This document shows positions 29,101 through 35,573 of a stretch of DNA of 64,000 nucleotides, one piece after another. The translations under genes and the position numbers were made by a program. The notes under the pieces are model-generated. The model was given only the letters and a program-made list of their open reading frames with translations, did not search any database and was not told the origin of the DNA. This DNA is from Hormiphora californensis (Eukaryota; Animalia; Ctenophora), in assembly GCA_020137815.1 (NCBI GenBank), contig CM035351.1:1116001-1180000 (forward strand). The letters are read 5' to 3'. The first letter of the stretch is position 1; each line of letters opens with the position of its first letter.

Positions 29101-30349
29101 GAATTATGCATCCGGTCATGGCACCTAACAAAAGTACCTGTCCTTGTGTATAGCAAATTGGGTAACTTGGTATGTCTCCAGATGGGTTCATTTCCCTTCC
29201 ATCTACATCCCATTGTCTCCTACTAATATCACTATCTTCAAAATGCAGTCTCTAACTTCACGATATCGCAATTTTCAATCCATGACTAACCCACTTACTC
29301 TATAAAATTCTACATACATATATTCGGTGCTGTAATATTATTTGCCAAACAGGCATGATTATAATTATATCATCTTTTCACATACCTCAACGCTACAATC
29401 GGATAGTTGGTTTGTACTAGTCACCATACCACCAACACCACCACGTCCAAGTTGGTTAAAACCTCCTCCCGTCCCAAAGTTACCGGAAATGTTCCCACCA
29501 CCACCACCACGAGAGAAGACATCCTCCAGACGCAGCTCCTCAAACACTACACGGCCATCAGATTTCTTAGCTATGTTCAGTTCAGTCCGAGGGTCTATGA
29601 GCGCATAAATGTCGACATCCCGATCGGGAGAGTAGATGTATTGGGTGTAAAGGTCTGCTATCATTTCAAATGAATTATCCTGAAATGGGGAAAATGAAGA
29701 AAAAACAAACCCTGAGAGAGAGGGAGAGAGAGCGAGAGAGAAAGAGAGAGAGAGAGAGAGAGAGAGAGAGAGAGAGAGAGAGAGAGAGAGAGAGAGAGAG
29801 AGAGAGAGAGAGAGAGAGAGAGAGAGAGAGAGAAAGAGTGGAGAAGGGGAGGGTTTGTTTGCACTTTGAGATAACACAGTCCTGAACAGCAGTACTGGAA
29901 ATACAAAGCCGGCCCGCACTGTTGTGACAGGACAGTAGAATACGTAAGCGGCGCTTTGAGTGAAGCATCGGACGTGGAAATCATAACATGATACTAGCAA
30001 ATAAACCGAGGAACAAACTAACGACCAAACTTGAACTGTTCATACGGTCACAGTATCAGGCGACTCACGAACAAACCGACAACGGACAAACAAACTCACG
30101 AACAAACCGACAAACCAACTCACATTGGTATCGATTGGAGCAGTGAATATGTAATTGATAAGTTTCTGGACCATATTATTTAATCGCATTTTATCCTGCT
30201 GGGGTATCTCCAGTGTCATCGGAAACCATGGTACCGACGAATTCTGTCGTAAATCCTGGTATCTGGCAATCAGCTGCTCATCGGATATATCGGATAGGGG
30301 CAGCTTGCCATTGTTGAAGATTTGCCAGATAGTACAACCGAATACCCAA
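23121..30349 (-). CDS. JAK: JAK-like tyrosine kinase, shared (constant) exons: pseudokinase C-lobe, linker, kinase domain
   Basis: Phase-consistent exons: 30124-30349 ([11 protein letters not shown]), 29386-29679, 27029-27247, 26522-26665 (IGRGNFGAV), 26052-26276 (VAVK), 24978-25127 ([12 protein letters not shown]), 24581-24742 ([19 protein letters not shown]), 23891-24004, 23592-23687 (RCW), and from 23150 to TAA at 23121-23123. Confidence 0.85.
23167..23275. mobile_element. 109-bp hAT-like MITE
   Basis: TIR caggaaccgaccga/tcggtcggttcctg; 8-bp TSD atacccag. Confidence 0.9.
23314..23376. mobile_element. Tiny Tc1/pogo-like MITE (~63 bp)
   Basis: ta|cagtcagtccccgatataccggg ... cccggtaaatcggggtctgactg. 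A partial copy lies at ~26935-26999. Confidence 0.55.
25174..25753. mobile_element. Kolobok/T2-type palindromic MITE
   Basis: TTAA|AGGGCCTAAAAACCCAAATTTT ... AAAATTTGGGTTTTTAGGCCCT|TTAA, with long imperfect inverted arms. Confidence 0.85.
26406..26514. mobile_element. 109-bp hAT-like MITE (second copy, opposite orientation)
   Basis: Same TIRs as 23167-23275; 8-bp TSD ccagtacc. Confidence 0.9.
28392..28777. repeat. ~75-bp inverted repeat pair enclosing an (AG)n microsatellite
   Basis: aattatgccaaaaactaac...gacacctttgccc (28392-28466) and its reverse complement (~28702-28777). Confidence 0.85.
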
Positions 30350-30510
30350 CTGATAGGGAGGGATAGGGGGCGTTAGGAGAGGGATAATAAGGAGGGAGGG
30401 ATAGGGGCGTTAAAGGAGGGATAATAAGGAGGGAGGGATAAGGGGCGTTGGTGGAGGGATAAGGGGCGTTAGCAATATGCTCTAGAAGAATGTATACGGT
30501 GGCAGATTAC

Positions 30511-30734
30511 CACGCATGTAGGGGAAGGGGGGGCAGGGTACGCCATGGCCCCAGTACTTTTCATGATTAGACTAAAACTATGACTTTTTGGCCTTAAAAC
30601 CGAAAAATTTTCTCGGGCTCCGCTGTCGCTTCGCCCGATCTATTCAAATTTTCAATAGAAAAGTCAGTGTATGTCATATCACGTGACCAAAAAAAATTGG
30701 CCCCACCACTTTCAAAACTTCCCCTACATGCCTG
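30511..30734. mobile_element. hAT-like MITE
   Basis: TIR ca(c/g)gcatgtaggggaag; 8-bp TSD cagattac on both sides. Confidence 0.85.
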
Positions 30735-33457: not shown

Positions 33458-33618
33458 TATAGCTGCTGGATCTGTTTGTCATAGGGGGGACCTAGAGAGT
33501 GGTGATACAACTGCTGTTATAACTGTTGTCGCTGTTGGATCTGTTTGTCATAGGGGAGTAGTGATACAAATTACAACACACAAACAAACACATTAAATAA
33601 ACACAATATACCACACAC

Positions 33619-35573
33619 CTGTCAGTGTAAGGGGTTAGGATGGCGCTGGGTTTGTGGAGGACAGAGGTAGGAAACCACCGCAGCACACACCTCCCCTCAT
33701 CTCTGGAGGACAAATGAAGAATATCCTTCCTATTCTTCTTGCTATTGGAATACACCCTTCCCATAATACCAACATCAAATAACTTGAGGTTGTTCCTGAT
33801 CTTATCAACTAGGATGTGTTGTGGAGCTGGGAATGTATGGCAGATACCGTTGCGATGAAGGAACAGTAACCCACACAAGATGTAGTTAGTGTACTTGAAG
33901 AGGAGGGTGAACCCAACGGGACCGTCGTCAATACTCTCAACATTATTTACATCTATCTCAGAGTAAGCGGGGGTATATTCCGTCTTGAGATGCTCTGCAA
34001 GGGTGTAGAACGGACCGTATTCAAGGACCATGGACACAGTATCGGGTTGGTGAAATGTATCGGTGGAGAGGCCGAATATTAGGGCCACGTTATCATGTGG
34101 CTGGTCCCGGATTAGGGAACAAGCTAAAAACAGCTCCTTCCTGTCTGTATAAGACATGGTCCACCCTTTGTACTGCACAATGTTAATACCTCGTTTCTCC
34201 GTTGGTGTTTTGGCAAATTGACCCCTGGAAACCACCCTCAACCAAGTGTCTTTAATCTTCTCAAAGTTAGATAAGTGGGAATTATCAATAAACACTCGAC
34301 CCACATCCGGGTCCTGTACATTTAGTATCTCTGTGTCCGTTAGTCCCGTTGTTAATTGACAATCGGGTGTTCTCGGTCCGGGTTGTGGTCGAGCTAGGTT
34401 AACCAGGGCTGTCAGAGAGGAATACCTCCGTAGGGGCGCCTGCTGAAGAAAACACCAACTGTCCTCTCCCTTCTCCACAACTGCCTCGTGTACCTCACCC
34501 TTACAGCAGTACAATAATATCCAATACCCTGGTTTGTGGGACACCTCTACCAACCCATACCACCCAGTCATAATCCCATACACGCCCAGAGCCTGTTTCA
34601 CCTCCTGACAATAGGACGTCCTGACAAACCTCACCCATTGAATTCTCCTGGGTTGTACTGTTAGATCCACCGGTATTTCTTGGACAGATGCCAATTCACA
34701 TTCCTCCTCCCGGTTCAAGGAGATTTGGTAGTAGAACAAGGACAGAAACCCCTCATACAGATCCTGTGTAGCGAAGGTTAGCTGATATTGTAGACCCCCG
34801 TTAAGGTTAATCACCACACCCAGGGGAGTGTGTGATGAGATGAATTTAATGCTGGGGAATGTGAGGGTGGTGGCATTGTTGTCGGAGAGAAGTTGGACAG
34901 ATGTATCGGATATCATAACATCAGCGGTGGCAGGGGTATCCTGCTGTTGACAGGATACCTCCACCTTTAGAAACTCACCGCATAGAGCGGGAGTTCTCAG
35001 GGAGTCGAGTAACCCGAGGAATTTGTCAATAAACAGTTTCATCACTTGCTGGCAGGGGAGGCGGTGTTTTGATTTGCCAACCATATCAACTAACACCGAA
35101 TCACTATCGGAAATGTCAAGCCCCTGGTTGATGTGGTTGTACTTCCTCACAGTCTTCCCCAAATCACTCTTGCGAAGAGGTAAACCAGCCGTCTTGCAGA
35201 AGAAAAACAGGAGAAGTGAGTGGAGAAATTTAACCTGTTCTGCCTGTCCTTGATAACTGCCATGCATGGCCAGGAACTTATATTTGCACTGACAGAAGTA
35301 GTAGAAGAAGCTCTCGTAGTCACTGTGAATCATTTCCTCTGTGGGAACGAGACTTGGTAGTATCGTCAGGAATATCTTCTCATCTGTCTCTGGTAGCACT
35401 GTTCGGAATGGAAGGAGGATCCGTTGTTCCGTCATCAATACGAACCACGAGGCGTAGAATCGGCAGACTTTGAGCCGTGTTAGGAGCTGATCAAGAATTT
35501 CCGTGACCTTAGTCTGCCGCTGGAACTCAACTGACGTCCCATTGTACAGGTAAATTGTAACCAACTTTGCCAT
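33619..35573 (-). CDS. JAK: JAK-like variable exon A: FERM, SH2-like and pseudokinase up to subdomain IX
   Basis: ORF 33492..35582 (ATG at 35573). FERM-like start (VTIYLYNG..EILDQL, FFYYFCQCKYKF); SH2-like GWYGLVEVS..YSSLTALV; motifs HTFPAPQHILV, KLFDVG, CVLRWFP. Ends GAC AG|gtgtgt. Confidence 0.8.

What the first reader, a model, noticed from the sequence alone, without database searches (positions are those of the whole stretch)
30124..35573. Variable-constant JAK locus: two interchangeable FERM-SH2-pseudokinase exons feeding one kinase
Seen: two highly diverged paralogous giant exons (A 33619-35573, B 31590-33457), each with its own ATG. Both stop at exactly the same point of pseudokinase subdomain IX (..TPYTD-AG|gtgtgt and ..VHLD-AG|gtgtgc, phase 2). 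Only one matching continuation is present (ctatcag|T TGG GTA at 30349), giving D-S-W-V-F-G, the JAK JH2 'DKWSFG' motif. Known: in JAKs the FERM-SH2 module sets receptor specificity, and variable first exons spliced to constant exons is the logic of the clustered protocadherin and UGT1A loci. Inference: one locus makes two JAKs with different receptor-binding and regulatory halves but one catalytic domain. I know of no JAK gene organised this way.
Basis: partly seen in the sequence, partly recalled or inferred. Interest (0 to 1): 0.9.

Follow-up and report, generated by a model that had tools for sequence, protein, structure and literature searches.

The report
Comb-jelly JAK with two swappable heads
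A gene from what is likely a comb jelly carries two very different, conserved receptor-binding front halves of a JAK signalling kinase ahead of one shared set of kinase exons, so one locus likely makes two JAKs, each predicted to end in an extra dead kinase domain.

Summary
Largely confirmed, with two corrections. Exon A (35573-33619, minus strand) is an open 651-codon frame. Exon B (33457-31590) is not open in the window: it has two compensating one-base breaks. DNA runs of the same organism lack both, so they are assembly errors and B is a 622-residue frame. A and B are ~20% identical. Both encode FERM, SH2-like and two thirds of a pseudokinase, and both stop at the same phase-2 donor. Only one continuation exists in the window (30349); its best PDB match is JAK2 JH2. 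Relatives in 8 of 8 clusters end at the same Asp-Arg; one is labelled Pleurobrachia bachei. A second species joins B and the constant exon on one contig. Listed substitutions in A, B and the first constant exon are mostly synonymous. No RNA covering the locus was found, so neither splice is shown directly. Best reading: a UGT1-like variable/constant JAK locus in a ctenophore (0.83).

The parts
33619..35573 (-). Variable exon A: ATG, FERM, SH2-like, pseudokinase up to the Asp of subdomain IX; phase-2 donor AG|gtgtgt
   Evidence: Open frame; Pfam PK_Tyr residues 473-634; fold hits JAK1/TYK2/JAK2 FERM-SH2; 30-33% identical to five relatives
33458..33618 (-). 161-base spacer between A's donor and B's ATG, with a 31-nt tandem duplication, a weak candidate acceptor ending at 33492 and an out-of-frame ATG at 33482
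   Evidence: length variants in runs X5 and X6
31590..33457 (-). Variable exon B: ATG, FERM, SH2-like, pseudokinase up to the same Asp; phase-2 donor AG|gtgtgc; two compensating one-base assembly errors near 32445 and 32270
   Evidence: matches a profile built from relatives over residues 6-589, E 4e-39 in a 6-sequence test; FERM fold
30910..31486 (.). High-copy mobile-type insertion in the intron between B and the first constant exon; absent at this place in organism B
   Evidence: Depth about 100-fold above the exons, loose ends at 30909/30910 and 31486; organism B contigs go from 31579 to 30898 without it
30124..30349 (-). Constant exon C1: W-V-F-G helix onward of the pseudokinase
   Evidence: Best PDB hits are JAK2 JH2, E 0.0017; Pfam profile positions 188-224, following on from A (40-171) and B (45-172); 11 of 13 listed substitutions synonymous
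27029..29679 (-). Constant exons C2 (29679-29386) and C3 (27247-27029): end of the pseudokinase, Gly-rich and acidic linker
   Evidence: GT-AG, in phase; no informative Pfam hit
23592..26665 (-). Constant exons C4-C9 (26665-26522, 26276-26052, 25127-24978, 24742-24581, 24004-23891, 23687-23592): tyrosine kinase with intact catalytic motifs and a YY activation loop
   Evidence: [30 protein letters not shown]; Pfam PK_Tyr down to E 6.5e-17; PDB hits include JAKs among MET, TrkA, PYK2, EGFR
18505..22847 (-). Constant exons C10-C16 (22847-22715, 20706-20580, 20400-20280, 19573-19492, 19261-19161, 19021-18905, 18705-18505 with stop): third, degenerate kinase domain (HGN for HRD, GWG for DFG)
   Evidence: In-phase GT-AG chain to a stop; 45 bits against the intact kinase, best of 100 shuffles 23 bits; weak Pfam kinase hits on 2 of the 6 of these exons scanned

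Best explanation
This is one JAK-family locus, likely of a ctenophore, in which either of two giant first coding exons (A or B) is likely spliced to one chain of 16 constant exons, giving two proteins of about 1490 and 1460 residues: FERM, SH2-like, pseudokinase, intact tyrosine kinase and a predicted second dead kinase. Shown: the exon layout, open frames, matching phase, conservation and JAK-type fold. Inferred: the two splices themselves; that the 20%-identical heads bind different receptor tails and set different pseudokinase control on the same catalytic domain (from known JAK biology); and how B is chosen. An A message arises when a transcript starting upstream of A splices A's donor to C1 and skips B in a 3.3-kb intron. 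A B message needs a 5' end between A's donor and B's ATG or inside A. I favour spliced-leader trans-splicing or a shared upstream non-coding exon (about 0.55) over a separate promoter within A's 3' end (about 0.45), because the spacer is only 161 bases and leaders are reported on at least 56% of long cDNA reads in a pleurobrachiid ctenophore.
For: Same donor, phase and residue in A and B; one continuation only. A + C1-C16 reads 1488 residues without a stop, all junctions GT-AG. Pfam profile positions of A/B and C1 abut. 15 of 15 full-length relatives (8 of 8 clusters) end the aligned region in D-R followed by Tyr, Ser or the end, as read-through of AG|GT would give. Synonymous excess: A 8 of 11 (p 6e-4), B 25 of 27, C1 11 of 13. 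Organism B contigs X11-1 and X8-23 hold B and C1 in one piece, and organism B also holds parts of A. JAK hits rank first for the A fold, for the profile of heads (JAK1 369-722 colinear with profile 240-598) and for C1. Leader trans-splicing in ctenophores: PMC8527503, passages.
Against: No RNA evidence: the two runs listed as RNA or possibly RNA (X15, X18) do not cover the exons. Two searches for longer proteins found no full-length spliced product (weak by the tool's own note). No listed contig bridges A to B; adjacency rests on the assembly and on continuous binned depth in organism A. No Pfam FERM or SH2 hit for A; the SH2-like and kinase parts of the A model have pLDDT mostly under 50. The B FERM model ranks FRMPD4, PYK2 and FAK above JAK1 (rank 6). 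The kinase exons alone do not single out JAK. A pyrimidine scan found no strong acceptor in the spacer. The substitution rows are only the 40 best supported of 368 and of 589.
Confidence: 0.83

Rival explanations
1. B plus the constant exons is the only JAK gene. A is a separate single-exon gene that reads through its apparent donor to the stop at 33494-33492 and makes a kinase-less FERM-SH2 adaptor or decoy.
For: A's frame stays open for 42 codons past the donor. Gene callers and the P. bachei model P0006 list such heads as stand-alone proteins. No A-C1 junction was seen.
Against: The read-through tails of relatives are unrelated and 0-20 residues long, while D-R is fixed. The pseudokinase would lack its last third. 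Listed changes in A's kinase part are mostly synonymous.
Confidence: 0.08
2. A is functional but is completed by another copy of the constant exons elsewhere in the genome (trans-splicing or misassembly), so A and B belong to two JAK genes.
For: A third head class (P0006, labelled P. bachei, and P0007) has no counterpart in this 64-kb window, so other JAK-head loci exist. No whole genome was available to count constant regions.
Against: A lies 161 bases from B on the same strand, with continuous depth in organism A. Cis-splicing to C1 is in phase and is the simplest route. Exon depth in X1 is similar across A, B and C1.
Confidence: 0.05
3. One head is a decaying duplicate: B a pseudo-exon (it is frameshifted in the window) or A a relic.
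For: Two frame breaks in B in the window; B is a long branch.
Against: The breaks are absent in 3 of 3 laid DNA runs of organism A. Organism B contigs align over B with two gaps of net zero length. There is strong synonymous excess, including a change at a third position of the corrected SH2-like frame. At 20% identity the duplication is not recent.
Confidence: 0.02
4. A and B are joined in one transcript into one long protein with two heads.
For: They are adjacent and AG sites exist in the spacer.
Against: 0 of 11 AG sites from A's donor to 33381 give an open A-B frame. A's pseudokinase would stay unfinished. Acceptors deeper in B were not tested.
Confidence: 0.02

Closest known systems
Janus kinases (JAK1, JAK2, JAK3, TYK2; Drosophila Hopscotch)
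   Same: FERM, SH2-like, pseudokinase and tyrosine kinase in that order (definition in PMC3670263, passages); fold and profile hits; YY activation loop.
   Different: Two alternative heads that each include most of the pseudokinase; a roughly 170-residue Gly-rich and acidic linker; a predicted third, dead kinase at the C-terminus. PMC3670263 (2013) calls the pseudokinase-bearing architecture unique to bilaterians; later work that I could not read may have revised this.
Vertebrate UGT1, UGT2A, GCNT2 and clustered protocadherin loci
   Same: Single unusually large variable first exons of similar length and the same phase, in tandem before shared constant exons (PMC1885805, passages).
   Different: Only two heads in this window. 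They are ~20% identical (UGT2A variable exons share 64% of nucleotides). The junction cuts through a pseudokinase domain. There is little room for a distinct promoter before B. PMC1885805 describes its Ugt1, Gcnt2 and Ugt2a arrangements as vertebrate-specific.
Mnemiopsis leidyi ML11617a, putative JAK1/2/3
   Same: A ctenophore JAK is already named, expressed with a STAT in muscle cells (PMC13749725, passages).
   Different: The passages give no domain layout or isoforms; I could not fetch the sequence, so orthology is untested.

Membership tests
JAK | N-terminal FERM domain | tested here: met
   A model residues 1-300 pLDDT mostly 60-90 with FERM hits; B model hits FERM domains; ESM features point to FERM at 0.82, a lead only. 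No Pfam FERM hit above cut-off.
JAK | SH2-like domain after FERM | tested here: met
   Profile of heads aligns through the JAK1 SH2 (GMYVLRWS against GwYglikk); JAK FERM-SH2 entries outrank plain FERM for A. Support is moderate: no Pfam SH2 hit, low pLDDT, and the Arg of the JAK1 motif is not kept.
JAK | Pseudokinase (JH2) before the kinase | tested here: met
   PK_Tyr hits lacking the catalytic Asp (HTFPAPQH, HTCPAPHH); C1 best matches JAK2 JH2.
JAK | Intact tyrosine kinase (JH1) | tested here: met
   All catalytic motifs present in C4-C9; activity not assayed.
JAK | Kinase domain groups with JAKs in a phylogeny | not tested
   No reference kinase set was available in the script box; per-exon PDB searches list JAKs among other tyrosine kinases without separating them.
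JAK | Kinase is the C-terminal domain | tested here: not met
   The frame continues in phase into a third degenerate kinase; hence a variant rather than a plain member. A shorter ending through a candidate exon near 23074 is not excluded.
JAK | Binds cytokine-receptor tails and phosphorylates STAT | not testable with these tools
   No genome held, no assay.
UGT1/protocadherin-type variable-constant cluster | Tandem paralogous large first exons, same phase, one constant region | tested here: met
UGT1/protocadherin-type variable-constant cluster | Each variable exon spliced to the constant exons in mRNA | tested here: inconclusive
   No RNA run covered the locus; indirect support only.
UGT1/protocadherin-type variable-constant cluster | Each variable exon has its own promoter | not testable with these tools
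   Spacer before B is 161 bases; no 5'-end data.

The most novel reading that the evidence does not exclude
Ctenophores reached multi-JAK signalling without gene duplication: an ancient array of three or four receptor-binding heads (classes A, B, P0004-like, P0006-like), some lying far upstream with other genes nested in between, is joined to one three-kinase-domain tail, the head being chosen by spliced-leader trans-splicing in a cell-type-specific way. The FERM-SH2-pseudokinase-kinase design would then date to the last common ancestor of animals.
Probability: 0.25. Interest if true: 0.9.

Novelty: new variant of a known kind. Interest (0 to 1): 0.72.

Why it matters
Vertebrates pair four JAK genes with different receptors. 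Here one locus would give at least two receptor-specific JAKs sharing a catalytic domain, a design known from UGT1 and protocadherins but not found for a JAK in my searches (open-access library only). It puts a JH2-bearing JAK in a likely ctenophore, against the 2013 review's bilaterian-only statement, which bears on when cytokine-type signalling was assembled. The variable part includes most of the pseudokinase, so regulation as well as receptor choice would differ between the two forms. The heads are too diverged for Pfam and are called as stand-alone fragments by gene callers, which could explain why ctenophores are said to have the fewest JAK-STAT components (PMC11193209, passage). The two heads are also ready baits for finding the unknown ctenophore receptors.

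Tried and rejected
Whole-genome search: no genome held. Word-index protein searches: A at near lengths, the 9-head alignment at 1230-3510 residues, and B's FERM part at 591-2000 residues all gave 0 hits. JGI metagenome scans with A and with P0004 gave no locus, so exon arrays in more distant species were not seen. A 24-base piece of the published leader has 0 matches in the window, which says nothing either way. An alignment of exon pieces on A was scrambled and not used. PDB sequence search with A alone gave only weak generic kinase hits. The tree of heads resolves class A (100/99) and the P0006+P0007 pair (100/99), but not the place of B or P0004. Earlier scan notes held nothing on this locus or sequence. 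One review on signalling-pathway evolution was not held, and the supplements of PMC8527503 could not be read; these may bear on novelty.

Full report
Observation. On the minus strand, exon A runs from ATG 35573 to 33619: 651 codons plus AG, then gtgtgt. Exon B runs from ATG 33457 to 31590 and ends VHLD-AG|gtgtgc. In the window B is broken: the first frame stops at 32425-32423, an SH2-like stretch lies in another frame, and the first frame resumes near 32270. All 3 laid DNA runs of organism A show one base put in behind 32445 and one left out at 32270/32271 (in X1 and X6 at the full depth of the place), so these are assembly errors. Read through with X, B has 622 residues and no stop, and it matches a profile built only from relatives over residues 6-589, the shifted piece included. 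A and B are 20% identical. The acceptor at 30350/30349 completes D-S-W-V-F-G for either exon, and tblastn finds no second copy of this exon in the window.

Constant region. Sixteen exons from 30349 to 18505 all have AG acceptors, GT donors and matching phases; A plus these reads 1488 residues to a stop. C1-C2 finish the pseudokinase: Pfam PK_Tyr positions 40-171 lie in A, 45-172 in B and 188-224 in C1, and C1's best PDB matches are JAK2 JH2 chains. C4-C9 hold a tyrosine kinase with all catalytic motifs and a YY loop. C10-C16 hold a third kinase-like domain with HGN in place of HRD and GWG in place of DFG; it scores 45 bits against the intact domain, the best of 100 shuffles 23. That it belongs to the same message is inferred from phase and from the lack of its own start.

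Family. A model of A built on 9 aligned heads (mean pLDDT 57.5; FERM part good, remainder poor) matches full-length JAK1, then TYK2, JAK2 and JAK1 FERM-SH2 structures in ranks 1-8, ahead of FAK. A profile of the same heads ranks JAK1 first and aligns colinearly from FERM F3 through SH2 into JH2. B's first 337 residues fold as a FERM domain, with FRMPD4, PYK2 and FAK ranked above JAK1. Pfam gives no FERM or SH2 hit above cut-off. Single kinase exons match JAKs along with MET, TrkA, PYK2 and EGFR, so kinase-domain orthology is untested.

Relatives. phmmer with A gave 11 hits, 8 of this family and 3 generic kinases. With cluster members there are 15 full-length heads of 657-702 residues in 8 clusters. 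All 15 end the aligned region in D-R followed by Tyr (9), Ser (1) or the end of the record (5), as expected when a gene caller reads through GAY AG|GT; I saw their proteins, not their DNA. One is labelled Pleurobrachia bachei; the others carry no organism. That the window is a ctenophore is therefore inferred. The heads fall into class A (A plus five), a P0006/P0007 class, and two long branches, B and P0004. No P0006-class exon lies in this window.

Selection and linkage. Of the listed substitutions that fall in the exons (from the 40 best supported of 368 rows and of 589), 8 of 11 in A, 25 of 27 in B and 11 of 13 in C1 are synonymous, against 21-23% expected. Organism B, a second species about 91% identical over B, has single contigs holding most of B, a short intron without the mobile insertion, and C1 (X11 record 1, X8 record 23), and separate contigs for A. 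No listed contig bridges A to B; binned depth across the spacer is continuous in organism A.

Mechanism. Shown: layout, frames, phases, conservation, fold. Inferred: A-C1 and B-C1 splicing gives two JAKs with different FERM-SH2-pseudokinase heads and one catalytic tail. From known JAK biology (PMC3670263, passages) the heads would choose receptors and tune the kinase. An A-B fusion is not possible through any of 11 AG sites up to 33381. How B is started is open. Only 161 bases separate A's donor from B's ATG, and A shares about 730 bases head to head with a SETDB1-like gene. A good acceptor lies 52 bases before A's ATG, only a weak one before B's. Spliced leaders are on at least 56% of long reads in a pleurobrachiid (PMC8527503, passages), so leader addition at the spacer, or a shared upstream exon, is a little more likely than a promoter inside A.

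What is missing. No RNA run covered the exons, no full-length spliced protein was found, and no genome was held. The claim rests on strong indirect evidence.

Comparison and novelty. It works like UGT1/UGT2A/GCNT2 and protocadherin clusters (PMC1885805, passages), with far more diverged heads and a junction inside a pseudokinase. It meets four of the JAK architecture tests and departs by a third kinase domain. A putative Mnemiopsis JAK is already named (PMC13749725, passages). A 2013 review calls the pseudokinase-bearing JAK bilaterian, and a 2026 survey starts JAK in sponges and does not list ctenophores among its target groups (PMC13203501, passages). Six searches for ctenophore JAKs or JAK first exons (listings only, except the papers named) showed no description of this layout; subscription papers were not searched. 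Other scan notes report variable-first-exon loci in other animals, so the design is recurrent; its use in a JAK is what is new. Verdict: new variant of a known kind, interest 0.72.

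Noticed in passing
window 36300-39948 +: SETDB1-like gene (Tudor, MBD, pre-SET, SET) head to head with exon A, about 730 bases apart, in a few very long frames.
   Followed up: partly
window 40516-41730 +: STAM-like gene (VHS, UIM, SH3) 5 kb from the JAK locus. STAM is recalled as a JAK partner in mammals; the closeness may be chance.
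   Followed up: no
window 30910-31486 and 30491-30890: Two repeat elements in the B-C1 intron; the first is very high-copy in both organisms but absent at this site in organism B.
   Followed up: partly
window 23074-23051 -: Candidate acceptor after C9 that in phase 0 gives a 7-residue ending; if used, it would yield a JAK without the third kinase domain.
   Followed up: no
window 19591-19511 -: The catalytic-loop exon of the third domain is 48-54% identical over 26-27 residues to class A pseudokinases P0018 and P0025, a hint that it may derive from a pseudokinase copy.
   Followed up: no
P0006, P0007 (relatives): A third head class, one member labelled Pleurobrachia bachei, ends at the same D-R but has no copy in this window; its locus is unknown.
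   Followed up: partly
window 6835-15313 +: Secreted-type gene with a Thr/Glu-rich stalk, thyroglobulin-1 and WAP domains and a sushi-like exon read by eye; an identical 390-base frame occurs at 13616 and 14411.
   Followed up: no
window 48759-63321: Dense run of housekeeping genes: Ufd2/UBE4, a CDK7-like kinase, a GTPase, a GNAT, an RCC1-like protein, OSCP and DUF498 (the CDK7 label is my reading).
   Followed up: no
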